A stretch of DNA of 56,302 nucleotides from Parcubacteria group bacterium Athens0714_12 (GTDB taxonomy: Bacteria; Patescibacteriota; Patescibacteriia; UBA2591; VMGY01), in assembly GCA_007378955.1 (NCBI GenBank), contig VMGY01000005.1, forward strand, positions 1 through 56,302, read 5' to 3'. The notes under the pieces are model-generated. The model did not search any database. It was not told where the DNA came from and worked only from the letters and a program-made list of their open reading frames with translations. Of the stretch, positions 2,258 to 12,011 are shown piece by piece; the first letter of the stretch is position 1; every line of letters begins with the position of its first letter. A program made the translations under genes and the position numbers.

Positions 2258-5056
2258 TTATTCTTCCCAAATTTTCTCAAAAAATCCCAAAGGAATTAGT
2301 TTGATATTTTGATGGACTGGCTGGCCTTCAGCCACAAAAAATTCTTCAGATTTATAAATTTTATATCCTTTTGCTTTTGCTTCTAAATAATATTTGCCTT
2401 GTGGCGTTAAAAAAGAATATTGGCCTGTTTTATCCGTGATTTGCGGATTTTTTTGGTCATATTTTCCCGCTTGCCAAATTTCAAATTTTTCTGTTTGCGG
2501 ATTGAAAAAATAAATAGTGATTTCAGCCTGCGGAATCCTGGTTTCTTTATCTTTGACTTCCTCGCTAAAAACATATCCTTCCGGGTCAATTAAAATTTCT
2601 GTTTCTATTATTTTATCCTCGCCGTCCGCGTAATTAATCACTGTGGCAAGGGAAAATTGACCGGCAACGGGCGGCAATTGGATTTCCGCCTCATAAATTC
2701 CGTCTTTATCGGGGTCGCTGTAAATAAATTCGCCAATCAGCCATTCTTTCGCCTGCGCGGCGTCAAAAACCGCGTCAAAAATACCGGCTACTTCTTGGGC
2801 TTGCGCGAAGGGAATACTAAGTGTCATTGCGAGGAGCGAACGCAGGGATTTGCTTACATTGTCATTGCGAGGAGCGACTGAAGCGAAGCGGAAAGAGCGA
2901 CGAAGCAATCCCGTTGTCTGTTGCATTCCCATCGGGATTGCCGCGCTCAACTGCCTGCTGGCAGCCTCGCTCGCAATGACGTTATTATTAGCCCGCGCCG
3001 ACAAAGATTTAATAAAAATCAACTTTCCCTTAATCTCTTTTGCCGGTTTTATTGGTTTAATAAAAGACTTAAAATTACTGCCGGCTATTAAAACTGCTTG
3101 CTCTTTTCCCGCGCTCTTTATTTTAATATTGCCAAAAGACGAAACAAACAGCGGTTTTTCCTCTAAAATTTGTTCTGGCGCCAAAGACGACTCCTTAACA
3201 ATAATCGGCGGTTCTATTGGCTGAACTTCTGTCGGCGGACTTGGCGGCTGTTTTTTCTCGCGCGTCTTTACCTCGGGTTTCAAAACTAAAAATATTTTCT
3301 TGCCTGTCTTATTTAAAGCAATAGCCGTATTTTTAACTGCCGTGGCAATGCCGCGGACAATCTTTAAAGAAAAACTCTGAATATTTTGGCCGGTTCCTTT
3401 AATTATTCTAAAACTGGATTGAAAAATTCCGCGGACAATAATCACTCCGGATTTTCCCAAATCTTTGCCCGCTTCTTTAATTTCCAGAAATGGATTTTTA
3501 ATTACATCTTCAAAATCAGAGAAAGCCAATTCTTTGATTTCCTGATAACTATCTTTCAAATTCTGCCCAATCGCCTGCCAATTTTTTTTAATCTCTTGCC
3601 TAATAGAAATCTTTTCTTTGATTGGCGATTCCATTATTGGCTTTTCAATAATTGGCAATCCTTCTTTAGAAATAATTTCTTCAATCGGAGTGATTTTTTC
3701 CGGAATAATTTCTCCCGGGGGTTCTTTTGGAATAATCTTTTCCCATTCTTTAACCGGCCGCTCAATTTCTTCCCATTTTATTGGCAAAACCGCGGGAATC
3801 TCCGGCGTTGTTGTTATCTCTTTCTCTATTATTTCAAAATAAATAATTTCTTCGGGGCTGAAATTTCCCGCCGCGTCTTGAGATTTAATAATTAATTTAT
3901 GTTTGCCCAATTTTAACGGGGTAATAATTTTATATGACCACTTGCCTTGTAAATCCGTCAGTGTCTGATAAAAAACGAAATCATCAAGACTGATAAAAAT
4001 CTTACTGTCGGGTTCAGCCGTCCCGGAAATAATCGGCGTCTTTTCTAAAATTTGCTCGCCATCGGCGGGATAAACAATAATCAAACCATCCGGCGACAAA
4101 GTGTCTAAAATAATAGAATCTGAAATCACTTGCGAGGCAACGCCGCCCGGACTTCTGAATTTGGCGTAGACATTTTTCACGCCGTCGCCTATCTCCAAAT
4201 ACCAAATTCTATTCTCTTGATAATTTTCCCAGCTAATTCCCTCAAAACTTTCTTTATTGGAAACAGCCATTTGGCTGGCGTTTTCAGCCGACAAACTTAA
4301 AACAACTCTTCTGGAATAAGTATATAACGCGCCTTTATCAATCAGTAAAGAAGCTGGTTTCCGCTCTGTCGCCTGCTCCCCGGAAACCACTTGCGGCGGT
4401 GGCGGCAGGCCAGGTCCGCCACCTGCCGTCATACAAGCAGACGTATTAAAAGTACAATTAGAACTGCATCCTAATGTCCCAGCGGTAAAACCCCGGCTTA
4501 AACAAGTTGCTCCACCCAATAAAGAGCCGTCGCACTGCTCCCCTGTTTCTAAAAGTCCGTTGCCGCAAGTCAAAGTAACCCAATTTGTTTTTACTTTATA
4601 ATCCACGTCAACGCAAGAGCCGGTTTTAAGACAATTAAAAACAATCCAGCCGATGTTTTCACCCCAAGCGTATCCGTTAAAATTTCCCACTGAATCAATG
4701 GTTACGCCGCCGTAAGTTGGATTAAAATTTATCCAACCCGTATTCTCGCCCCAACCGTAGCCAGTCAAATTCCCGTTAACATCATTACTCACTCCGCCGT
4801 AGACAGGGCTTAAATCAATCCAGCCGGCATTTTCAGCCCAAACATAACCGGAAAGGCCGGTATCTGTTACTTGCACATTGCCTTCTGAACTGCCAAAATT
4901 AAGCCAGCCGATATTTTCACCCCAAGCGTATTTATAATTCGCGTCAATAGTTCCCGTAGTTTCCGCCGCAAACGCAAAATTAACAGTTATCAACTGCCCT
5001 ATTAAAGCAAAAAGTAATATGATAGTAATAAATTTATTTCGCCTCATTAATTTCAT
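2258..5056 (-). CDS. Large secreted or surface repeat protein. It has a signal peptide, four GYAWGENIGWINF-type repeats, a Myxococcus-type cysteine-rich repeat, a poly-Pro stretch, an Ig-like region, a PE-rich linker and a C-terminal prealbumin/CarboxypepD_reg-like domain.
   Basis: N-terminus MKLMRRNKFITIILLFALIGQLITVNFAFA (signal peptide). Repeats (GY[AV]W[GA]EN[IAT]GW[IL][NDV][FL]) occur four times. CGNGLLETGEQCDG...C matches the TIGR02232-like cysteine repeat. PGLPPPPQ follows. A MITE-like element (2825-2985) is carried in-frame. Confidence 0.6.
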   Translation of the reverse strand: MKLMRRNKFITIILLFALIGQLITVNFAFAAETTGTIDANYKYAWGENIGWLNFGSSEGNVQVTDTGLSGYVWAENAGWIDLSPVYGGVSNDVNGNLTGYGWGENTGWINFNPTYGGVTIDSVGNFNGYAWGENIGWIVFNCLKTGSCVDVDYKVKTNWVTLTCGNGLLETGEQCDGSLLGGATCLSRGFTAGTLGCSSNCTFNTSACMTAGGGPGLPPPPQVVSGEQATERKPASLLIDKGALYTYSRRVVLSLSAENASQMAVSNKESFEGISWENYQENRIWYLEIGDGVKNVYAKFRSPGGVASQVISDSIILDTLSPDGLIIVYPADGEQILEKTPIISGTAEPDSKIFISLDDFVFYQTLTDLQGKWSYKIITPLKLGKHKLIIKSQDAAGNFSPEEIIYFEIIEKEITTTPEIPAVLPIKWEEIERPVKEWEKIIPKEPPGEIIPEKITPIEEIISKEGLPIIEKPIMESPIKEKISIRQEIKKNWQAIGQNLKDSYQEIKELAFSDFEDVIKNPFLEIKEAGKDLGKSGVIIVRGIFQSSFRIIKGTGQNIQSFSLKIVRGIATAVKNTAIALNKTGKKIFLVLKPEVKTREKKQPPSPPTEVQPIEPPIIVKESSLAPEQILEEKPLFVSSFGNIKIKSAGKEQAVLIAGSNFKSFIKPIKPAKEIKGKLIFIKSLSARANNNVIASEAASRQLSAAIPMGMQQTTGLLRRSFRFASVAPRNDNVSKSLRSLLAMTLSIPFAQAQEVAGIFDAVFDAAQAKEWLIGEFIYSDPDKDGIYEAEIQLPPVAGQFSLATVINYADGEDKIIETEILIDPEGYVFSEEVKDKETRIPQAEITIYFFNPQTEKFEIWQAGKYDQKNPQITDKTGQYSFLTPQGKYYLEAKAKGYKIYKSEEFFVAEGQPVHQNIKLIPLGFFEKIWEE
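2825..2985. repeat. MITE-like palindromic element, family 1 (gtcattgcgagg...cctcgcaatgac), copy A, inside the surface-protein CDS
   Basis: One partial and one full unit: gtcattgcgaggagcga... then gtcattgcgaggagcgactgaagcgaagc...gcaatcccg...gggattgc...cctcgctcgcaatgac. The host ORF stays open across it. Confidence 0.7.
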
Positions 5057-5105
5057 TGAGATGGTTACAAAACTATTTCGCTACGCAACTTATTACGCAG
5101 TAGGT

Positions 5106-5789
5106 CTATTTCGCCTGTATAATAATCTTGTTCGCGATAGAAAAAATTTCTTTTTTAAAAAATTTTTTAACCTCCCGCCAGCCGGCTTTAAAATAAATTT
5201 CCGGCTCTGGATCGTCTTCGGCGTCTTCAAAATACGCCAAACTCTTTAAGATATGATGAAAATTATGAGCGACAGAGGGATATTGAGCGGGCAGTCTTTT
5301 GATTATATTCTCCAGAGATTCAATGTTTTTCGCGCACCAATACGCGTCAAAAAAATCTCTTTTTTTGCCTCGCTGGGATATGGCAATAATCTTCATCACG
5401 GCAATGTCAATCGGTTGAAGTATTTTGATTGAGCCATACCGAATAAATTCTTGTTTGGGAATAAAAAAGGGATAAGCGATAAAACTTGCCTTCGCGCCGA
5501 ATAATTCGCCATATATGGTATTATCTTCTTCAAAATTAATCTTCCAATTATCATTGCCAATGAAATGAGTTATAATCGCGCTTGATTTAAAATTAGCATT
5601 TTGATTAAAAAAATCTAAATCAACCGATTTGCGACAACCTGTTTGCAACGTTAATGCCGTGCCGCCGGCTAAATACCATTTAGATTTTAAAAGCCACTTT
5701 TGTTCAGACAAAAAAACAAACGCCTTTTTTGTTTCAGACGGCAAAATTTTTGAATTGATATCTATTTGTTTTTTAAAAGCAGTGTCCAC
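5106..5789 (-). CDS. Nucleotidyltransferase of the AbiEii/AbiGii (DUF1814) toxin family
   Basis: WYLAGGTALTLQTGCRKSVDLDFF matches the AbiEii NTase core (GG[TS]AL...R.S.D[IL]DF). Size is 227 aa. It overlaps the small upstream ORF by 28 bp. Confidence 0.6.
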   Translation of the reverse strand: MDTAFKKQIDINSKILPSETKKAFVFLSEQKWLLKSKWYLAGGTALTLQTGCRKSVDLDFFNQNANFKSSAIITHFIGNDNWKINFEEDNTIYGELFGAKASFIAYPFFIPKQEFIRYGSIKILQPIDIAVMKIIAISQRGKKRDFFDAYWCAKNIESLENIIKRLPAQYPSVAHNFHHILKSLAYFEDAEDDPEPEIYFKAGWREVKKFFKKEIFSIANKIIIQAK

Positions 5790-5989
5790 AAATTTTTAGT
5801 TCTAGGCCTTAATGACCTTGATTTTGCTACGACTTTTTTGAGTAGCGGCTTATCATAAAAATCATAAAGCCACTTAACTTCTTTGTCATTGCCAAAATCC
5901 AAAATACGCTCAATAACATATTGGGCATTTTTTTTCGCGTCTATTTTGCGCGGATTGACATCCCAGAATAATACTTGTCTAAATTTCAT
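5762..5989 (-). CDS. Small conserved partner protein upstream of the AbiEii-family NTase; putative antitoxin-like
   Basis: 75 aa (MKFRQVLFWDVNPRKID...YVIERILDFGNDKEVKWLYDFY). It is translationally coupled with and overlaps the NTase gene. The function is inferred from this arrangement only. Confidence 0.4.
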   Translation of the reverse strand: MKFRQVLFWDVNPRKIDAKKNAQYVIERILDFGNDKEVKWLYDFYDKPLLKKVVAKSRSLRPRTKNLWTLLLKNK

Positions 5990-6302
5990 ATGCTTATTTT
6001 ATCAAAATTTACCGCGACTTGCAATTTTTCAAATTGGTATATTATACATTGATAACATATAATATTTAACAAATATTTCAAAATATCCGTCTATGTAATT
6101 ATTATACTTTATCTTGCCCATTTTTGCCAACCGCCGATCATTCTGCCAATTTCGGCCATTTCTTTTTGGGCTATCGTAAATGCTGATTATACTGATTTTA
6201 TTATCAGTGATATCACGGATTAAACCTGCCTATGTTATAATAAAATATAATCGTTTTTCATTTCCTCTATGAATAATTATACCACAAAATCCGATATACC
6301 GC

Positions 6303-6340
6303 ATTACGAGAGAGAGAGAGAGAGAGAGAGAGTAAAACAC
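6303..6340. repeat. (GA)12.5 microsatellite inside a ~37-bp inverted repeat; left boundary of the DGR cassette
   Basis: cattacGAGAG...GAGtaaaac. It is the reverse complement of 9590-9630 (caatacGAG..GAGagtaaat). Both runs are exactly 25 nt. Confidence 0.8.
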
Positions 6341-7202
6341 ACGCTACCAATTTTTTCAACTTTCAAAATCTCCTCAAAGCGTATTATCAATGCCGAAAAC
6401 GGAAAAGAAAAACTGCCAATGCCGCTAAATTTGAATTAAATTTTGAAAAAGAACTTCTAAAACTGGAATGGGAACTGAAAAATCATACTTATCAGCCCGG
6501 CAGGTCAATCTGCTTTATTGTAACTGATCCCAAACCGCGCGAGGTTTTTGCCGCTGACTTCCGGGACAGGATTATCCACCATCTTTTAATAAATTTTTTG
6601 GAACCGATTTGGGAACCAAAATTTATCCATCATTCTTACTCCTGCCGCAAAAACAAATTCTGCAGCACATTAACAAGGGAATAAATTTCATCGGCTATAT
6701 TATCAAACCGCATTACACTCTTGTCAGAAGGCGGATTGTCAAAAATCTGAAAAGAAAATTATGGCAATTCAATCTTTCCTTGCGTTATTGCATTTTTCCC
6801 TGTCATTGCGAGCGAAGCGAAGCAATCCCGAGGCAAGACGCGACAAACCAACGGGATTGCCACAGTCGGTCGCCTGCTGGCGACCTCCTTCACAATGACA
6901 CTTCTAAGTTGTCATTGCGAGGAGCGACTGGAAGGAGCGACGAAGCAATCCCGTTCGCTAATCCTCGGGATTGCTTCGTCGCCTCTGCTGAGGCTCCTCG
7001 CAATGACAGCGATGAACAATTAAAACAAATCCTCTCTGTTATCAACTCTTATTACGGACAATTTAAGCATAGCAATACTTTTAATTTACGAAAACATCTT
7101 TATCAAAAACATTTTGGGATTTTAAAAAACTATCTTGAGCCGGCTGACCCCGTTAGATATGACTATTTCAAAATCAAAAATTTTAAAAAAATAAAAATCT
7201 AA
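6335..7202 (+). pseudogene. Remnant of a diversity-generating-retroelement reverse transcriptase. The N-terminus is cut by (GA)n, the catalytic domains 3-6 are deleted, there is a frameshift, and two MITE units are inserted.
   Basis: Frame 1 (6361-6681) reads NLLKAYYQCRKRKRKT...YQPGRSICFIVTDPKPREVFAADFRDRIIHHLLINFLEPIWEPKFIHHSYSCRKNK, which are RT domains 1-2 of DGR type. A stop follows. Frame 0 (6609-7202) reads GINFIGYIIKPHYTLVRRRIVKNLKRKL (thumb region) and ...SYYGQFKHSNTFNLRKHL (RT C-terminus). There is no YxDD region and no start codon. Confidence 0.75.
6801..7006. repeat. MITE-like element, family 1: two tandem units (6801-6900 and 6911-7006) inserted in the RT remnant
   Basis: Unit 2 is almost a perfect nested palindrome: gtcattgcgaggagc / gcgacgaagcaatcccg ... 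cgggattgcttcgtcgc / gctcctcgcaatgac. Confidence 0.75.
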
Positions 7203-7289
7203 CGGGGCTGATGAAAATTTCAGTCATTTTAAGAAACACGATATCCGCGATTCAAAAAAACTCAATGAAGCCAAAAGTTTTTTATGATT

Positions 7290-7436
7290 ATTGCCAAGAG
7301 AGCTAACGAACGCAACGCGAGTCATAAGTATTAGTCTTAAGATTGTTGTTCGTGTTGCCGTTGTTCAAGTTCACGTTCCACGCGTTGTGGGTATTGTTAG
7401 ATTTAGTAGTGGCTGACCAAAAGTTGTTACCGGCGT
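7290..7436 (-). repeat. DGR template repeat (TR); its sense is on the minus strand
   Basis: It is 147 bp with no indels relative to VR 8067-8213. Its AAC and AAT codons on the minus strand correspond to varied VR codons. The IMH*-like end is attgccaagagagctaacg. Confidence 0.8.
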
Positions 7437-7603
7437 AAATTTTTTTCCGCTATTTTTCCTTAACTGAATCAATCTTTGCCAAAGCAAAGTATAATTCAAT
7501 TGATACTTTATCCCGCAGTACTACGGGAAGCGGAATCGCAATAATTCTCAAACCCGCTTTTTGTTTGTCCTGCAGACGCGGGACTAAAACAAAAATTCTG
7601 GCT

Positions 7604-7969
7604 TCATTGAATTTTCCTTTTCAAATTATCAAAAAACCATTTTTCCCAACCAAATACCTGTTTAGAAATTTCCTCTAAAAAACGGCTTAAAAATTCTAAT
7701 TTTTTAACATTAATTACTTTCAAATCATAAGCCACTCTTAAATGAATTTTTAATCGTTCAATCCTCGCATTTATTTCCGAAAAATAAATCCCTTTATCTT
7801 CCTTGGAATTAGTTACAACAATCCAATCCAAAAGTTCGCCAACTATTTCTTTTAATTTTTGACCCAATGAATATTTATATTCTCTGGGAAAATTATGTGT
7901 CGTGCGATAAATTTCAAGATTTAAATCATATCCCTTTTGAAAAATTGGCAGATGAATATAACGCGACAT
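7604..7969 (-). CDS. avd: Four-helix-bundle protein (TIGR02436, the '23S rRNA IVS protein' family); Avd-like DGR accessory variability determinant
   Basis: LPIFQKGYDLNLEIYRTTHNFPREYKYSLGQKLKEIVGELL...RIERLKIHLRVAYDL fits the four-helix-bundle family. It lies between VR and TR, as in canonical DGRs. Confidence 0.65.
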   Translation of the reverse strand: MSRYIHLPIFQKGYDLNLEIYRTTHNFPREYKYSLGQKLKEIVGELLDWIVVTNSKEDKGIYFSEINARIERLKIHLRVAYDLKVINVKKLEFLSRFLEEISKQVFGWEKWFFDNLKRKIQ

Positions 7970-8066
7970 ATTCCTCCTTAAATATATACGCTAATAATGC
8001 CGAATCGATGTTTTATTAGTTTTATAAAAAAATAATTAAATTAAAAAAATCATAAAATTATAAAAT

Positions 8067-8213
8067 ATTGCCAAGGGGGCTAACGAACGCAACGCGAGTC
8101 ATAAGTATTAGTCTTAAGATTGGCGTTCGTGTAGCCGTGGTACAAGTACACGTCCCACGCGTTGTGGGTACCGTTAGATTTAGTAGTAGCCGACCAAAAG
8201 GAGTTACCGGCGT
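8067..8213 (-). repeat. DGR variable repeat (VR), covering the last 44 codons of the target gene plus 13 bp past its stop codon (the IMH-like end)
   Basis: It differs from TR at 12 TR-adenine positions: AAC>GCC, TAC x3, CAC, GAC, TCC; AAT>GGT; TCA>TCG. There is 1 silent non-A change and 2 changes in the GC-richer IMH end (ggggg versus gagag). Confidence 0.8.
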
Positions 8214-9540
8214 GGGGTATAACGGTTGAGGAGCTCCATGACCCGTCAATATACGCTTGCATCAATTCTTTTTGGTGGGGTAAACGCCAATTGCCATCTC
8301 CTAAGGCCTTACAACCGGTAATGTTCGGGGTGCTGGTTGCTGTAACACATCGGCAGGCATCATTACCGTCAGCAGTGCAGGTTCCTGGGTTTGCCCAACT
8401 TTCCGGCGCCCAGCAATTATTCGCCCACCACCAATTATGATCAGTTCCACTGTCTAAATAATCAGACCAAATTTGTCCTGTATTATTGTCTTGATAGCAA
8501 ACATCGCCCGCGCAAGCCGTAGAATCTCCTGTTTTGCAATAATTATTAGCCGCAGCGCATTGGGTCCAAGAAGCGGCAAAACTATCAGTCGGTCTTGCCC
8601 CGGCATCATTATAATCATCTACTCCGCCTAAGGCTTGAGTATAAAAAGCAAAATCTTCCACCGGACTGGTCGCCGAGCCATTTTTTATATTCACCACTGA
8701 AAACATATTTCTGTTATTCAAATATTCCAGCCGTTCTAAAATATTTCCGTCTATATTGGCGGAGATGGTGGTTGAACTATATCCGGACTTAGCGAGCGCG
8801 TCTAAATATTCGGCTCTGGTATAAGTCCAAGTGGTGGAGCTCGCCAAGGCGGTGGAAGCCGGCGCCGCATAATCATAGAGCGTTTTCTGCCAGCCGAAAA
8901 TATTAGCGGTGCTGGTGGCTGATGTGGAAGTGCCGATCGCGTCGTGCGTATACGCCTGCCCGGCGAATAAACTTGTTGAAGTGGCAGGGGTGGAAGTGTT
9001 CCAGCCGATTAAATAAGCGATACTGCCCCAAGCCCGAGTAGTTGAAGCGGTGGAGCTGGAAACAAGATATTTGAGGTCGGAATTGAGAAAATTTAAGTAT
9101 TCCGCTCGGCTGTTAGTCCATAAAGCAGTGGTTAACGCAGTGGAAGCCGGCGCGGTATAATCATAAAGAGTTTTCTGCCAGCCAAAAAGAGTTAAGGTGC
9201 TGGTGGCAACAGTGGAAGTGGCGATGGTGTCGCTAATCGCTTCCAAGCTGTCTGTGGTTCTGCTAAAAGTGTTATTGCTGTCTTTTGAAGCCATATCCAA
9301 TAAGGAATGCATGGTGGCGGCCGGGCTTGCCGAAGGCGTTAAACTGCCGGCGTAAGCGATCACCGTAATCACCAACACGGAAATAACCACAATCAACCCG
9401 TCAACAGCCAATTTATGGAGGTTCAACCTCCATATTGAGGTTGAACCTCCATATTCTTGTCCTTTTATCCTCTTGGATAATTTTTTTAGATAATCCTTTT
9501 TGTTTATTTGTTTCATAATTTTTCTCCAATAAAAAAACAC
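8080..9540 (-). CDS. DGR target (variable) protein. It has an N-terminal TM or signal segment, tandem ~85-aa Thr/Ser-rich repeats and a C-terminal DUF1566/C-type-lectin-like ligand-binding domain that holds the VR.
   Basis: C-terminus ...GDGNWRLPHQKELMQAYIDGS...FWSATTKSNGTHNAWDVYLYHGYTNANLKTNTYDSRCVR* (the DUF1566 hallmark ends in RCVR). The exact start is uncertain because a REP doublet (9412-9452) lies in-frame near the annotated N-terminus. Confidence 0.7.
   Translation of the reverse strand: MFFYWRKIMKQINKKDYLKKLSKRIKGQEYGGSTSIWRLNLHKLAVDGLIVVISVLVITVIAYAGSLTPSASPAATMHSLLDMASKDSNNTFSRTTDSLEAISDTIATSTVATSTLTLFGWQKTLYDYTAPASTALTTALWTNSRAEYLNFLNSDLKYLVSSSTASTTRAWGSIAYLIGWNTSTPATSTSLFAGQAYTHDAIGTSTSATSTANIFGWQKTLYDYAAPASTALASSTTWTYTRAEYLDALAKSGYSSTTISANIDGNILERLEYLNNRNMFSVVNIKNGSATSPVEDFAFYTQALGGVDDYNDAGARPTDSFAASWTQCAAANNYCKTGDSTACAGDVCYQDNNTGQIWSDYLDSGTDHNWWWANNCWAPESWANPGTCTADGNDACRCVTATSTPNITGCKALGDGNWRLPHQKELMQAYIDGSWSSSTVIPHAGNSFWSATTKSNGTHNAWDVYLYHGYTNANLKTNTYDSRCVR
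9412..9452. repeat. REP doublet: tatggaggttcaacctccata + ttg + aggttgaacctccatat (inverted pair)
   Basis: It has the same palindrome core as the RAYT-flanking REPs. It is translated in-frame (YGGSTSIWRLNLH) in the 5' extension of the DGR target ORF. Confidence 0.7.
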
Positions 9541-9589
9541 TATTAAAAACAGTGTTTTAAAAATATTTTAAAATTAAAAATTCGTAAGC

Positions 9590-9630
9590 GAAATTTACTC
9601 TCTCTCTCTCTCTCTCTCTCTCGTATTGGT
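9590..9630. repeat. (CT)12.5 microsatellite inside a ~37-bp inverted repeat; right boundary of the DGR cassette
   Basis: Reverse complement of 6303-6340. Confidence 0.8.
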
Positions 9631-9687
9631 TATTTTATTCCCTTTGCTCATATTTTAAATTCTACCACAAAATAAAAAGCAAAAAAA

Positions 9688-10092
9688 TTAACGAACAGTT
9701 GAGATAAATTCTTCAACATCTTTTAACCTATTTTGTAAAACATCATAGACAATATCATAATCTATTTTTTCGTAATCGTGAGCCATCACATTTCTAAAAC
9801 CTGTCATTCTCGCCATTTTTTCCGTCAATTCATTAGAAATCATTTTTTGTTCGTTTAAGATATAGAAACTTTCACTCATCGTGGATGGTTTGCGAAAATT
9901 TTTAGCGGAAACAATCGCCTCCGCCAAATCTATTACTGATTGGACGAGTAAATATAAGTATCTTTCCACCGCTCCTCTAATATTTATATCCCGCTCTATT
10001 TCTTTTCTTGAATAATTTTTATAATTCTCTAAAATTTTCAGGTATTTTTTAACAGCGCTGATTTTATTTTCAATGGCGGACAATTTTGTCAT
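9688..10092 (-). CDS. hepT: HepT-family toxin (HEPN domain; DUF86)
   Basis: R-x4-HxY HEPN motif FRNVMAHDY; 134 aa. It overlaps the upstream MNT gene in an ATGA overlap. Confidence 0.7.
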   Translation of the reverse strand: MTKLSAIENKISAVKKYLKILENYKNYSRKEIERDINIRGAVERYLYLLVQSVIDLAEAIVSAKNFRKPSTMSESFYILNEQKMISNELTEKMARMTGFRNVMAHDYEKIDYDIVYDVLQNRLKDVEEFISTVR

Positions 10093-10095
10093 ATT

Positions 10096-10500
10096 TTACG
10101 CTTTAGTTAAATTATGCCGCAAAAGCAAACTATGGAAATCAAAATATTCATTTAAAATTTTTGGCTCAATTAAAACCTTATACGGCTCCCGCTCAAAAAT
10201 TAATTTTCCTTCTTTAATTATATTGTATTTCAATTCAGGCCCTTCGGCAACATTCAAAACAACTAAATCCACTTTATCTGTCTTAAGCGTTCGGGATATT
10301 TTATCCATTAACTCGCACCTAAGATCAAAAATCTTTTTTTTATTTTTTTCGGCGAAATAAACGGCGAAATCGTAATCGCTCATTGGACCTTTTTTATTTT
10401 CCGCCGTTGAACCGAATAAATAAACCAAACCCACTTTTTTTAAAGAGCGAAAAACAGGAGATAAAATTTGAGAGATTTCTTTAATGCTTAAATCTTTCAT
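10096..10500 (-). CDS. mnt: MNT-family minimal nucleotidyltransferase antitoxin
   Basis: GS-x9-13-DxD motif LFGSTAENKKGPMSDYDFAV; 134 aa; it sits upstream of hepT. Confidence 0.7.
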   Translation of the reverse strand: MKDLSIKEISQILSPVFRSLKKVGLVYLFGSTAENKKGPMSDYDFAVYFAEKNKKKIFDLRCELMDKISRTLKTDKVDLVVLNVAEGPELKYNIIKEGKLIFEREPYKVLIEPKILNEYFDFHSLLLRHNLTKA

Positions 10501-10529
10501 TGCAAATTTTGAAAAAATGCCGAAAAAAT

Positions 10530-10546
10530 GTCAAGGTTGAACCTTG
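10530..10546. repeat. REP-related palindrome variant tcaaggttgaaccttga
   Basis: It has the same ggttgaacc core as the REPs but different outer arms. It lies between mnt and rplU. Confidence 0.5.
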
Positions 10547-10564
10547 ATATTTTCACCGAGTTGG

Positions 10565-10876
10565 TTAAATTTTTGTGATTTTGATTTTTGTATAAAGGGG
10601 ATGATAGCCTCTTTTTTTTCTATACCTGACTTTTGCTTTGAATTTAATGACCGTCACTTTTTCACTTCTTCCTTGTTCTAAAATTTCCGCTTCCACTTTC
10701 GCATTTTCCAAATAAGGCTGCCCTATTTTTACGCTTTCGTCATTTTCAGCCAATAATAAAACTTTATCAAAAACCGCCTTCTTTTGGTCGGAAGGTTCTA
10801 TTTTATCAATCTTAATAATATCTCCTTCTTTCACTTTATATTGTTTTCCTCCGGTTTCAATAACGGCAAAATTCAT
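10565..10876 (-). CDS. rplU: 50S ribosomal protein L21
   Basis: MNFAVIETGGKQYKVKEGDII... Confidence 0.85.
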   Translation of the reverse strand: MNFAVIETGGKQYKVKEGDIIKIDKIEPSDQKKAVFDKVLLLAENDESVKIGQPYLENAKVEAEILEQGRSEKVTVIKFKAKVRYRKKRGYHPLYTKIKITKI

Positions 10877-10928
10877 ATTTTTTAATTAATCTATTCAAAA
10901 ATTTAGTTTTTATGTTATTTTTTATATT

Positions 10929-12011
10929 CTACGCTTTATTTTTAATTTTGTAAACCCCCACCAAAAAAATAGCCAAAACAGCCATTAACCCCGATAAAAT
11001 CCCCATCGTGATTAACTTGCCTGAACTCTTAAGAAAAAAAGTTGATAAGCCGAAAATCAGAGATAAAAAATAAAGGAAAACCACTGCTTGGCGCGGTGAT
11101 AAGCCAATATCCAATAATCTGAAATGCAAATGTTTTTTATCGGCCAAAAAAGGAGAATGACGCTCCCAAAAAACGCGGCGGGCAATCACCCAAATCACAT
11201 CAATGACCGCGATGCCCATTACCAATAAAGTGGTGGCGAATTTTCCTCCGGAAATAATCGCTAAAACTCCCAGCATAAAACCGCAAAAAGTGCTCCCTCC
11301 TTCGCCTAAAAATATTTTAGCCGGATGCCAGTTGAAAATTAAAAAACCTAAACAAGCGCCGGCTAAAATTATCGCCAAAAGCCCGACTTCCGGCTGATAA
11401 AAAATAGTAAAAAGGCAAAGCCCGAAAATAATCAGGCCGCCGATGGCGGTGATACCGGAAACCAAGCCGTCCAAACCGTCTAAAAATTTAGTGGTGTAAA
11501 TCATTCCCAAAAGCCAAAAAAAAGTCAGTAAATCAGCTGGCCAAGAAAAATAATAAGGCGCTCCTTGAAAATTCAAAATAAAAAATTTATTTAATTCTAA
11601 ATTAATTATTCCGTTGAAAGGATTAGTGATGTATTTAACGCCGATGCCGCTGGCAATAATTGTCAAAACAGCCAGTAAAGGAAAAATAAATTGTTTCTTG
11701 GGCGGCAAATTATATTTATCATCCAAAAAACCCCCTGATATTAAAAACAAACCGGCGATAAAAATTCCTATCAATTGCTTTAAAGCGATTGACTTCCCTA
11801 AAATATAAGGCGTAAAAAAAGTGAAATAAGCCAAAACAATGAAAAAGCTTAAAAAAATAATTAAGCCGCCCAATAAAGGAATGGGGTGGCTGTGAATTTT
11901 TCGAGGGCTGGGATAATCAACGATTTTATTTTTTAAAGCAAATTTGCGGACAAAAGGAGTGAGAATCGCCGCCAATAAAAAAGTTGAAATAAAAGCTGAA
12001 AAATAATTCAT
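10929..12011 (-). CDS. Glycosyltransferase family 4 polyprenyl-phosphate sugar-1-phosphate transferase (MraY/WecA-like)
   Basis: Polytopic membrane protein. DYPSPRKIHSHPIPLLGG fits the D.P..RK.H..P.P..GG motif of the MraY/WecA family. Size is 360 aa. Confidence 0.6.
   Translation of the reverse strand: MNYFSAFISTFLLAAILTPFVRKFALKNKIVDYPSPRKIHSHPIPLLGGLIIFLSFFIVLAYFTFFTPYILGKSIALKQLIGIFIAGLFLISGGFLDDKYNLPPKKQFIFPLLAVLTIIASGIGVKYITNPFNGIINLELNKFFILNFQGAPYYFSWPADLLTFFWLLGMIYTTKFLDGLDGLVSGITAIGGLIIFGLCLFTIFYQPEVGLLAIILAGACLGFLIFNWHPAKIFLGEGGSTFCGFMLGVLAIISGGKFATTLLVMGIAVIDVIWVIARRVFWERHSPFLADKKHLHFRLLDIGLSPRQAVVFLYFLSLIFGLSTFFLKSSGKLITMGILSGLMAVLAIFLVGVYKIKNKA

What the first reader, a model, noticed from the sequence alone, without database searches (positions are those of the whole stretch)
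6335..7202. The DGR reverse transcriptase is a decayed remnant: a frozen DGR
RT domains 1-2 (…YQPGRSICFIVTDPKPREVFAADFRDRIIHHLLINFLEPIWEPKFIHHSYSCRKNK) are in frame 1 and have no start codon; the reading frame runs straight out of the (GA)n tract. After SYSCRKNK the sequence jumps, with a frame shift, to the thumb region (GINFIGYIIKPHYTLVRRRIVKNLKRKL). About 170 aa containing the YxDD catalytic core are therefore missing. Two MITE units sit between the thumb and the C-terminal SYYGQFKHSN segment. The RT remnant is also on the opposite strand to TR, avd and the target, which is an unusual arrangement. The locus looks like a DGR that diversified in the past, as the A-to-N mismatches show, and is now fixed unless an RT acts in trans.
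Basis: partly seen in the sequence, partly recalled or inferred. Interest (0 to 1): 0.6.

Follow-up and report, generated by a model that had tools for sequence, protein, structure and literature searches.

The report
Deleted, repeat-gated DGR reverse transcriptase
A targeted-mutation retroelement (DGR) in a groundwater Parcubacteria genome lost the catalytic half of its reverse transcriptase in one clean deletion and its target gene has not changed since. That part is ordinary, but the gene's "missing start codon" is really the OFF setting of a (GA)n repeat that intact, active relatives also carry, which looks like an undescribed on/off switch for DGRs.

Summary
Window 6269-7202 (+) holds a DGR reverse transcriptase (RT) that keeps its N-terminal part (6334-6657), thumb (6639-6773) and C-terminus (6996-7199). 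It lacks about 167 residues, including motifs 3, 4 (GNLTSQ) and 5 (YVDD). The junction is a 13-nt microhomology, CCGCAAAAACAAA, that reads in both frames. Two in-frame MITE units sit in a variable linker.

Three distinguishable haplotypes from independent assemblies share this deletion and have identical TR and VR. They differ by SNPs, repeat length and a MITE insertion. So the deletion is real, and "frozen DGR" is supported.

- The opposite-strand RT is the normal layout of this RT clade, with intact RTs.
- The "absent start codon" is an ATG at 6269 put out of frame by (GA)12.

Ten of 15 close relatives carry a (GA)5-17 tract at the same place. Intact RTs occur in both ON and OFF frames. Two loci differ between metagenomes only in tract length (15 vs 17 units; 16 vs 15), which flips the frame. 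One locus that is OFF in most assemblies is still diversifying its VR. Every long dinucleotide repeat in 1.25 Mb of related loci lies inside a DGR cassette.

The dead RT is ordinary. The repeat-gated RT appears new.

The parts
6233..6241 (+). Extended -10-like box TGTTATAAT upstream of the RT leader (putative RT promoter)
   Evidence: Read from the sequence. Similar boxes precede the leader ATG in relatives. Function is inferred only; the consensus scan requires a -35 box and did not list it.
6269..6307 (+). RT leader: ATG 6269 and 13 codons (MNNYTTKSDIPHY), in the +1 frame relative to the RT body
   Evidence: Homologous to the leaders of P0033 (MNNYTTKS...) and L081 (...YITKSDIPH...).
6308..6331 (+). 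(GA)12 simple sequence repeat between the leader ATG and the RT body. The present length puts the RT out of frame (OFF); 11 or 14 units would be in frame.
   Evidence: The same position holds (GA)5-17 in 10 of 15 close relatives.
6334..6657 (+). RT N-terminal fragment (N-terminal motif FxFQNLL, fingers motifs 1-2, ending ...SYSCRKNK)
   Evidence: tblastn to intact RTs, 72-86% identity, E to 1e-58. Alignment.
6645..6657 (+). Deletion junction CCGCAAAAACAAA. It reads as (S)CRKNK in the upstream frame and as PQKQ(I) in the thumb frame, a 13-nt microhomology. About 0.5 kb (about 167 codons plus 1 nt) is missing here.
   Evidence: Overlapping tblastn matches at 6639-6657. DNA and protein alignments with intact relatives. 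Identical junction in L172/L206 and L207.
6639..6773 (+). RT motif 7/thumb fragment (PQKQILQHINKGINFIGYIIKPHYTLVRRRIVKNLKRKLWQFN), frame of 6609
6801..6900 (.). MITE-like palindromic unit 1, read through in frame
   Evidence: ORF 6609-7202 stays open.
6910..7008 (.). MITE-like palindromic unit 2 (perfect 16-nt terminal inverted repeats TGTCATTGCGAGGAGC / GCTCCTCGCAATGACA), read through in frame
6996..7202 (+). RT C-terminal fragment (DEQLKQILSVINSYYGQFKHSN...) and stop codon
7254..7276 (-). 3' arm of a 23-bp helix that encloses the TR-containing RNA
   Evidence: (I4). Equivalent helices with different sequences occur in L081, L091, L001, L004 and L005.
7289..7436 (-). Template repeat (TR), including IMH* (GCTCTC...) at its 3' end
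   Evidence: (D1).
7596..7618 (-). 5' arm of the TR-enclosing helix; overlaps the end of avd
7604..7969 (-). avd (121 aa), intact
   Evidence: Pfam bAvd 7e-16. NCBIfam DivGenRetAVD 5e-19, 68.5 bits, below the 80-bit cutoff.
8066..8213 (-). Variable repeat (VR) plus IMH (GCCCCC...) at the 3' end of the target gene
   Evidence: Identical in three haplotypes.
8080..9540 (-). Target gene (486 aa from GTG 9540; more likely 478 aa from ATG 9516, which has a GGAG ribosome-binding site), with a C-terminal Lcl_C / C-type-lectin-like domain
   Evidence: (Lcl_C 8e-9).
9594..9628 (-). Second (GA)12 tract on the minus strand (9621->9598) with the same flanks, TACG(AG)nTAAA. It forms a 35-nt, 97% inverted repeat with 6302-6336 and so brackets the cassette. 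It is preceded by TGTGGTAGAAT and a short ORF, MSKGNKITNTRERERERE*. Its length is polymorphic (6 units in L207).
   Evidence: (I2).

Best explanation
The region is the reverse transcriptase gene of a diversity-generating retroelement (DGR) that belongs to a Parcubacteria/CPR-specific RT clade. In that clade the normal layout is RT on one strand, converging on TR, avd and a C-type-lectin-like target on the other.

Shown:
- One deletion of about 0.5 kb between two copies of a 13-nt microhomology removed motifs 3-5 (GNLTSQ, YVDD) and shifted the frame. This copy therefore cannot make cDNA.
- The deletion predates the split of at least three present-day haplotypes.
- Since that split the VR has not changed, although SNPs, a repeat length and a MITE insertion have.

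Inferred:
- The deletion arose by replication slippage or microhomology-mediated repair.
- It is evolutionarily recent, because the surviving fragments are undegraded.
- Avd, TR, IMH/IMH* and the helix enclosing the TR RNA are intact, so the locus could still be served by a cognate RT in trans, if one exists.

A second layer lies on top of this. The RT's apparent lack of a start codon comes from a (GA)12 tract between the real ATG (6269) and the RT body. In this clade that tract most likely acts as a slipped-strand phase-variation switch. Gain or loss of GA units moves the RT in and out of frame with its ATG, so only part of a population expresses the mutagenic RT at any time. In the window the switch reads OFF, but this no longer matters because of the deletion. 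The two in-frame MITE units sit in a length-variable linker and may have been tolerated before the deletion.
For: Deletion and missing motifs. The closest solved structure to a full-length relative is the Bordetella DGR RT (8ub7_A, E 1.4e-38).

Real, not an artefact: the junction is identical in GCA_007376655.1 and ERZ27284377, which differ from the window at 3302, 9461, the (CT)n length and a MITE at about 10889.

Frozen: VR and TR are identical in all three haplotypes. In the active P0008 locus, all differences across up to 11 kb fall in the VR, and 21 of 23 lie opposite TR adenines.

Past activity: 12 of 13 coding TR-VR mismatches are at TR adenines, in AAY codons.

Normal architecture: the TR lies on the opposite strand just after the RT 3' end in L001, L004, L005, L063, L081, L083/L091 and L084, all with intact RTs.

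Intact cis parts: bAvd; a 23-bp enclosing helix that covaries in relatives, fold z = -5.5.

Repeat switch:
- The tract is at a conserved position in 10 of 15 clade members, with 5-17 units.
- No canonical in-frame start exists upstream of the conserved N-terminal motif in the OFF loci.
- The OFF loci (window, L081, L083, L084, L004) and the ON loci (L091, L168, L093, L095, L098, L063) all have otherwise intact RTs, except the window.
- L083 (GA)15 OFF versus L091 (GA)17 ON: 99.8% identical over 6.2 kb, and the tract is the only difference across RT/TR/avd.
- L084-87 and L169-171 (AG)16 OFF versus L168 (AG)15 ON: 0 mismatches in 1.5 kb.
- All 27 dinucleotide repeats of 8 or more units in 1.25 Mb of related loci are inside DGR cassettes. 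None is found in 190 kb of phage DGR loci. The window's only long repeats are the two flanking its DGR.
Against: - The rest of the genome could not be searched, so a trans-acting RT is not excluded.
- VR invariance rests on only three haplotypes.
- No intact allele of this exact locus was found, so the ancestral spacing and the 13-nt downstream repeat copy are inferred from relatives at about 80% identity.
- For the switch, the window's RT-side tract has 12 units in every assembly that spans it, so no polymorphism is seen there.
- The P0008 locus has 16 units in 7 of 8 contigs.
- Assembly or PCR stutter could contribute to length differences.
- Among 9 OFF cases, 7 need a -1 and 2 a +1 correction. 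This is not significant, but it is compatible with expression by transcriptional slippage or ribosomal frameshifting rather than DNA-level switching.
- There are no expression data.
Confidence: 0.8

Rival explanations
1. The frameshifts and the missing 0.5 kb are assembly or sequencing artefacts. The real genome carries an intact RT.
For: The contig is a metagenome-assembled sequence. Logan contigs for this locus break exactly at the (GA) tract, so the region is hard to assemble.
Against: Three assemblies made with different pipelines and representing distinguishable haplotypes share the identical junction, MITEs and (GA)12. The 13-nt microhomology is shorter than usual assembly k-mers, so reads must span the junction.
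Confidence: 0.03
2. The DGR is not frozen. A second, intact, cognate RT elsewhere in the genome (or on a phage or a co-resident element) still diversifies this VR through the intact TR, Avd and IMH.
For: All cis parts and Avd are intact. Genomes with several DGRs exist; L001 carries two.
Against: There is no RT in the 56-kb window. The VR is identical in three haplotypes that have diverged elsewhere. Among the top 120 RT homologues, the only one named for this MAG is the remnant itself, which is weak evidence.
Confidence: 0.1
3. The (GA)n tract has no switching role. It merely encodes a tolerated Glu-Arg linker or is a mutational accident, and the OFF-frame loci are simply early pseudogenes, like this one.
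For: Surveys discard more than half of candidate DGRs as inactivated (Wu et al. 2018, PMC5758913). Several homologues carry other frameshifts. The window's RT is truly dead.
Against: The OFF-frame loci have otherwise full-length, conserved RTs. The OFF-consensus P0008 locus is actively diversifying. In two loci the tract is the only difference between ON and OFF alleles. Long dinucleotide repeats are confined to DGR cassettes, at three different positions in RT genes of unrelated clades.
Confidence: 0.2
4. RT expression across the tract is achieved at the RNA or translation level (RNA-polymerase slippage on (GA)n, or programmed -1 ribosomal frameshifting). The "OFF" DNA state would then be the normal, constitutively low-expression state rather than one phase of a DNA switch.
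For: Seven of 9 out-of-frame cases need the same -1 correction. Seven of 8 contigs of the actively diversifying P0008 locus are in that state.
Against: The 7:2 split is not significant. In-frame alleles exist in nature at the same loci. No slippery heptamer or downstream stimulatory structure was identified; this was not searched systematically.
Confidence: 0.15
5. The truncated RT is retained because its N-terminal and thumb fragments have acquired a non-catalytic role, for example binding Avd or the TR RNA.
For: Both fragments are free of stop codons. A 197-codon ORF stays open through two MITEs. Sequence divergence is not elevated.
Against: The N-terminal fragment has no start codon in frame, and the 197-aa ORF starts at an internal TTG. 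A recent deletion explains the preservation more simply.
Confidence: 0.04

Closest known systems
Bordetella phage BPP-1 DGR (mtd-VR, avd, TR, brt)
   Same: Same parts: a TR/VR pair with adenine-specific differences in AAY codons, an IMH richer in G+C than IMH*, a four-helix Avd, and a C-terminal variable lectin-like target. A full-length relative of the window's RT hits the bRT structure 8ub7_A at E 1.4e-38.
   Different: The RT is convergent with TR, avd and the target instead of downstream on the same strand. There is no long spacer between TR and RT; instead a 23-bp helix encloses TR plus about 160 nt upstream. The RT has a leader with a (GA)n tract. In the window the catalytic core is deleted.
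CPR/DPANN DGRs as catalogued by Wu et al. 2018 (PMC5758913; the Paul et al. 2017 set)
   Same: A groundwater CPR host, with genes on the reverse strand inside the cassette. The B3 architecture with a reversed gene makes up 90% of their CPR set. Occasional non-A substitutions occur.
   Different: The exact order here is RT followed by TR, avd and target on the opposite strand. Wu et al. kept only "putatively functional" DGRs and discarded those with premature stops or truncations. That filter would have removed repeat-OFF RTs such as L081, L083, L084 and L004.
Inactivated or degenerate DGRs
   Same: The RT is disrupted while the TR/VR signature persists. Wu et al. report that over half of candidate DGRs are inactivated.
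   Different: Here the lesion can be described precisely (one microhomology deletion) and the standstill of the VR is shown by comparing haplotypes.
Simple-sequence-repeat contingency loci (Haemophilus, Neisseria, Campylobacter phase variation)
   Same: A long repeat tract in the 5' coding region between the ATG and the conserved body. Natural length polymorphism shifts the frame ON or OFF. Tract length is far above the genome background. The general mechanism is taken from established knowledge and from the reviews listed.
   Different: The gated gene is not a surface antigen or a restriction-modification gene. It is the mutagenic enzyme of a second diversification system. The hosts are CPR/DPANN, and the unit is a GA dinucleotide. 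No paper linking repeats or phase variation to a DGR RT was found.
Rickettsia palindromic elements (in-frame MITE insertions in coding genes; recalled from memory, not tested)
   Same: Palindromic elements of about 100 nt with terminal inverted repeats are inserted in frame in ORFs: the RT linker, and the 932-aa gene at 2822-2915.
   Different: The sequence family is unrelated, and no evidence was sought that the inserted peptide is tolerated.

Membership tests
Diversity-generating retroelement (DGR) | RT of the DGR clade with catalytic YxDD (motif 5) and the DGR-typical motif 4 (I/L)GxxxSQ | tested here: not met
   The window's RT lacks residues 128-294 of P0125, which include GNLTSQ and YVDD. 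The flanking fragments are clearly of this clade (E to 1e-58), and a full-length relative best matches bRT 8ub7_A. The locus is therefore a DGR by descent but not a functional one.
Diversity-generating retroelement (DGR) | TR/VR repeat pair whose differences fall at TR adenines | tested here: met
   148-nt repeat, 90% identical. Twelve of 13 coding differences are at TR adenines, in 8 AAY codons plus TCA.
Diversity-generating retroelement (DGR) | Accessory protein Avd | tested here: met
   Pfam bAvd 7.1e-16, 59 bits, above the 40-bit cutoff. NCBIfam DivGenRetAVD 5e-19, but 68.5 bits is below the 80-bit cutoff.
Diversity-generating retroelement (DGR) | IMH at the VR 3' end that differs from IMH* in the TR | tested here: met
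   VR has TAGCCCCCTTGGCAATA and TR has TAGCTCTCTTGGCAATA; homology ends just after. Its function is inferred.
Diversity-generating retroelement (DGR) | VR at the C-terminus of a target with a C-type-lectin-type fold | tested here: inconclusive
   The VR covers the last 45 codons. Pfam Lcl_C gives 8e-9 and 36.2 bits, just above the 34.9-bit cutoff. No structure was predicted.
Diversity-generating retroelement (DGR) | Ongoing VR diversification in the population | tested here: not met
   VR is identical in three haplotypes that differ elsewhere. This contrasts with the VR-only differences at the P0008 locus. Read-level data were not available.
Simple-sequence-repeat phase-variable (contingency) gene | Long repeat tract in the 5' coding region, or between the start codon and the conserved body, whose length sets the reading frame | tested here: met
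   (GA)12 at 6308-6331 lies between ATG 6269 and the RT body, and 11 or 14 units would be in frame. The same position holds a tract in 10 of 15 clade members.
Simple-sequence-repeat phase-variable (contingency) gene | Tract-length polymorphism among otherwise identical genomes, producing ON and OFF alleles | tested here: met
   Met in relatives: L083 (15, OFF) versus L091 (17, ON); L084 group (16, OFF) versus L168 (15, ON). In the window's own lineage the target-side tract varies (12 versus 6 units), but the RT-side tract has 12 units in all assemblies.
Simple-sequence-repeat phase-variable (contingency) gene | Reversible, high-frequency switching of expression within a clonal population | not testable with these tools
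   Needs read-level tract-length spectra, cultures or reporter constructs.
MITE (miniature inverted-repeat transposable element) | Short non-coding unit with terminal inverted repeats, present in several copies, with presence/absence polymorphism | tested here: met
   Units of about 100 nt with a 16-nt perfect terminal inverted repeat; 5 or more copies or fragments in the window. An extra copy is present at about 10889 in GCA_007376655.1 but absent from the window. Target-site duplications were not examined.

The most novel reading that the evidence does not exclude
DGR reverse transcriptases of a CPR clade are gated by hypermutable dinucleotide repeats. The same appears to have arisen independently, at other positions in the gene, in a second bacterial clade and in DPANN archaea. 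Slipped-strand changes in (GA)n length switch the mutagenic RT ON and OFF. A population therefore keeps most cells genetically stable while a minority diversifies the target: a stochastic switch placed on top of a targeted hypermutation system. The same kind of module (-10 box, short ORF, (GA)n, GTAA) also occurs upstream of DGR target or accessory genes (window 9594-9628, L028, L115), which suggests that the whole cassette may be phase-controlled.
Probability: 0.6. Interest if true: 0.75.

Novelty: new variant of a known kind. Interest (0 to 1): 0.55.

Why it matters
The dead RT on its own is a routine case of DGR inactivation. Its value is as a clean natural control: same lineage, TR and Avd intact, RT core gone, VR static.

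The repeat finding matters more.
- How cellular DGRs limit the cost of continuous mutagenesis is largely unknown. The major surveys and reviews searched do not mention frameshifts, repeats or phase variation of the RT.
- A repeat-gated RT would be a simple, heritable and reversible answer.
- It would also mean that DGR surveys which discard RTs with "premature stops or truncations" undercount functional DGRs in CPR/DPANN, and that gene callers mis-start these RTs at internal codons.
- The idea can be tested directly with existing metagenomic reads.

Tried and rejected
- Pfam on the two RT fragments gave no RVT_1 hit, because they are too short or lack the core. Identification therefore rests on homologues.
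- I first considered that the N-terminal frameshift might be a 2-nt "AC" insertion near 6359, since the ATG frame reads ...ERVKHTLPIFS. I rejected this. The RT-frame reading ESKTHATNFFNFQNLL matches the RT frames of L084 and L095 (ESKTHFTFQNLL, ESKTYFTFKNLL). Both "ERV" and "ESK" readings of (GA)nGTAAA occur in relatives.
- I considered that the cassette had been inverted between the two 35-nt inverted repeats, or that the RT orientation reflects a rearrangement. I rejected this because the leader at 6269 is homologous to RT leaders of relatives and the convergent layout is clade-wide. Neither upstream ATG would be in frame after an inversion.
- Homology between the two (GA)12 regions beyond the 35-nt core is about 47% in AT-rich sequence, which is not significant.
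- The -1 versus +1 bias among OFF loci (7:2) is not significant.
- The window's own MAG is not among the GTDB representative genomes, so the rest of the genome could not be searched for another RT.
- IMG/VR holds no relative above 59% identity.
- Exact-protein look-ups for P0025 and for the 478-aa target found nothing.
- Rfam gave no hit in 5000-11000.
- Paul et al. 2017 could not be read. No paper mentions "Athens1014".
Full report
**What is there.** The window is a 56,302-nt contig of the MAG "Parcubacteria group bacterium Athens1014_10". Its ORF 6609-7202 is protein P0025, annotated "Retron-type reverse transcriptase".

A DGR occupies about 6230-9630. These parts lie on the minus strand:
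- a 486-aa target, 9540->8080, with a C-terminal Lcl_C domain (8e-9);
- an intact bAvd gene, 7969->7604 (Pfam 7e-16; NCBIfam DivGenRetAVD 5e-19);
- a 148-nt template repeat, 7436->7289, that is 90% identical to the variable repeat at 8213->8066.

Twelve of the 13 coding TR-VR differences lie at TR adenines, in eight AAY codons and one TCA. One is a synonymous C>T. Two T>C differences just after the stop codon distinguish a GC-richer IMH from IMH*. The DGR signature is therefore real.

**The RT remnant.** On the plus strand, tblastn with intact relatives gives three collinear pieces:
- residues 24-127 of the full-length relative P0125 at 6346-6657, in one frame;
- the motif-7/thumb segment at 6639-6773;
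- the C-terminus at 6996-7148, in another frame.

Nothing else in the window resembles an RT. About 167 residues are missing, including YYLQxD, GNLTSQ (the DGR-typical motif 4) and YVDD.

The two matches overlap. The 13 nt CCGCAAAAACAAA (6645-6657) read as (S)CRKNK in the upstream frame and as PQKQ(I) in the thumb frame. Intact relatives have both sequence contexts about 514 nt apart. A deletion of that length between direct microhomologies explains both the loss and the +1 frame change. The mechanism is inferred.

Two palindromic MITE-like units of about 100 nt (6801-6900, 6910-7008) lie in a linker whose length varies among relatives. Both are read through in frame.

The surviving pieces have no stop codons. 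They are as similar to intact RTs (N-terminus 0.70-0.82, thumb 0.60-0.72, C-terminus 0.55-0.75) as intact RTs are to each other. The lesion is therefore recent, not the end of a long decay.

**Artefact or real, and frozen or not.** The same locus was recovered from other assemblies:

| Assembly | 3302 | 9461 | Target-side tract | MITE at about 10889 |
|---|---|---|---|---|
| Window | G | C | (CT)12 | absent |
| GCA_007376655.1 (L172/L206) | A | T | (CT)12 | present |
| ERZ27284377 (L207) | A | C | (CT)6 | contig ends before this site |

All three are identical across the RT remnant (same junction, (GA)12 and MITEs), the TR and the VR. The deletion is therefore real and older than the haplotype split. 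The VR has not moved while other kinds of mutation accumulated.

The contrast is the locus of relative P0008. Contigs from five samples are identical over up to 11 kb except inside the VR. There, 21 of 23 variable sites lie opposite TR adenines. The MAG is not among the GTDB representatives.

**Orientation.** The convergent RT is not a peculiarity of this locus. In every close relative examined, the TR lies on the opposite strand directly after the RT stop, followed by avd and an Lcl_C target, and the RT is full-length. These relatives are L001, L004, L005, L063, L081/82/89, L083/91, L084-87 and L169-171. More distant relatives have the canonical TR-upstream layout. Reversed genes are typical of CPR DGRs in the survey of Wu et al. 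(PMC5758913).

**The "missing start codon".** An ATG at 6269 follows a TGTTATAAT box. It opens MNNYTTKSDIPHY, which is homologous to RT leaders of relatives. It runs into (GA)12 at 6308-6331 and comes out one frame away from the RT body. Eleven or 14 units would fuse it to ...ESKTHATNFFNFQNLL.

This is a family trait. Among 15 distinct loci whose RT N-terminus is at least 70% identical to the window's, 10 carry (GA)5-17 at this position. It is usually followed by GTAAA. A more distant relative has (CA)14.

Frame states are mixed:
- OFF: window, L081 group (8 units), L083 (15), L084 group (16), L004 (8).
- ON: L091 (17), L168 (15), L093 (16), L095 (10), L098 (12), L063.
- Ambiguous: L088.

The OFF loci have no canonical start in the RT frame upstream of the strongly conserved FxFQNLLxAYxxCRKxKR motif. 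Gene callers therefore start these RTs at internal codons, and longer ON versions sit in the same 90% clusters.

Two loci give direct evidence:
- L083 and L091 come from different metagenomes and are 99.8% identical over 6.2 kb. Their only difference across RT, TR and avd is (GA)15 versus (GA)17, OFF versus ON.
- L168 differs from L084 by a single GA unit, (AG)15 ON versus (AG)16 OFF, with no mismatch in 1.5 kb.

That locus is (AG)16, OFF, in 7 of 8 contigs, yet it is the one whose VR is turning over.

**Wider pattern.** All 27 dinucleotide repeats of 8 or more units in 1.25 Mb of fetched loci lie inside DGR cassettes. They are found:
- in the RT leader (this clade);
- inside the RT after motif 2 (L101 (GA)17 and L114 (GA)11);
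- between motifs 3 and 4 in DPANN archaea (L072, L077), exactly where the tblastn frames switch;
- upstream of target genes (window; L028);
- in a short ORF after a target gene (L115).

In 190 kb of phage DGR loci there is none longer than 6 units. In the window itself the only long repeats are the two that flank the DGR.

The most economical reading is slipped-strand phase variation of RT expression. RNA-level slippage or programmed frameshifting is a live alternative: 7 of 9 OFF cases need a -1 correction, which is not significant. I found no report of repeat or phase-variation control of a DGR RT in the searchable literature. Wu et al. state that they discarded candidates with premature stops or truncations, which would hide such loci.

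**The second tract.** On the minus strand, 58-82 nt upstream of the target start, lies another (GA)12 with the same flanks, TACG(AG)12TAAA. It forms a 35-nt, 97% inverted repeat with the RT-side tract and so brackets the cassette. It is preceded by TGTGGTAGAAT and a short ORF, MSKGNKITNTRERERERE*. It has 6 units in L207, so it is length-variable in this lineage. Close relatives lack it. Its role is unexplained; it could be a transcriptional or uORF-type switch, a recent duplication, or coincidence.

**Other cis features.** A 23-bp helix (7618->7596 with 7276->7254) encloses the TR and about 160 nt of hairpins upstream of it. The fold has z = -5.5. Relatives have an equivalent helix with different, compensating sequences: L081 24 bp, L091 23 bp, L001 14, L004 13, L005 12. 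This is presumably the boundary of the DGR RNA, and it is intact in the window.

**Verdict.**
- It is wrong on two supporting arguments, the start codon and the orientation.
- It overstates the decay.

The dead RT is an ordinary event. The repeat-gated RT that it led to is, as far as I could find, a new variant of DGR organisation. It is supported by comparative and population evidence but not yet by expression data.

Noticed in passing
window 9594-9628 (with 6302-6336): A second (GA)12 tract with identical flanks lies upstream of the target gene. It forms a 35-nt, 97% inverted repeat with the RT-side tract, so the pair brackets the whole DGR cassette. It has 6 units instead of 12 in assembly L207. 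Close relatives lack it. Its function is unexplained.
   Followed up: partly
window 7254-7276 and 7596-7618 (minus strand); L081, L091, L001, L004, L005: A long-range helix of up to 24 bp encloses the TR plus about 160 nt of upstream hairpins. The arms differ in sequence between loci but stay complementary. This is probably the structural boundary of the DGR RNA in this convergent-RT clade.
   Followed up: partly
L084-L087, L169, L170 (P0008 locus), VR at L084 7024-7171: Contigs from different samples are identical over up to 11 kb except inside the VR, where 21 of 23 variable sites lie opposite TR adenines. This is a clear case of ongoing DGR diversification in nature, even though the consensus RT frame is repeat-OFF.
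   Followed up: yes
L072 1383-1398, L077 4951-4966 (DPANN archaea); L101 793-826, L114 1785-1806: Dinucleotide repeats of 8-17 units lie inside RT coding regions of unrelated clades, exactly at frame breaks. L101 and L114 are related and have 17 and 11 units in the same (OFF) phase.
   Followed up: partly
L028 3911-3942; L115 177-230: (TC)16 lies about 140 nt upstream of a Gracilibacteria DGR target gene. (AG)27 lies in a short ORF (MNIIETQRPSETLDFVERER...) just after a target gene. These are further repeats in DGR cassettes outside the RT.
   Followed up: no
window 2822-2915: A copy of the same MITE family sits in frame inside the 932-aa surface-protein-like gene (2258-5056, minus strand), giving the peptide ...SVAPRNDNVSKSLRSLLAMTLS...
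   Followed up: no
window ~10889 versus L172/L206: MITE insertion polymorphism. GCA_007376655.1 has an extra MITE copy between the L21 gene and the glycosyltransferase gene that the window lacks, so the element has been mobile recently.
   Followed up: partly
window 5106-5989 and 9688-10500; L081 5077-5995: The DGR is flanked by two toxin-antitoxin pairs: AbiEii + DUF6922, and HepT + MNT nucleotidyltransferase. In relative L081 the AbiEii/DUF6922 pair sits on the other side of the cassette. The large surface-protein gene upstream of the RT is syntenic in several relatives.
   Followed up: no
window 9414-9453 (also 10527-10549): A near-perfect 40-nt palindrome (TATGGAGGTTCAACCTCCATATTGAGGTTGAACCTCCATA) lies inside the 5' coding region of the target gene. 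A related 23-nt sequence occurs 1.1 kb away.
   Followed up: no
window 8846-8944 and 9134-9232: A 99-nt direct repeat, 81% identical, inside the target gene: an internal duplication of an N-terminal segment (GWQKTLYDY...).
   Followed up: no
L208-L210 (Logan contigs): Three independent short-read assemblies of this locus break exactly at the RT-side (GA) tract (window 6330-6334). This is consistent with the 35-nt inverted repeat or with length heterogeneity confusing k=31 assembly.
   Followed up: no
proteins P0044, P0077, P0036, P0027: Several RT homologues of this clade are truncated by frameshifts or deletions inside the RT body. RT inactivation therefore seems frequent in the clade.
   Followed up: no
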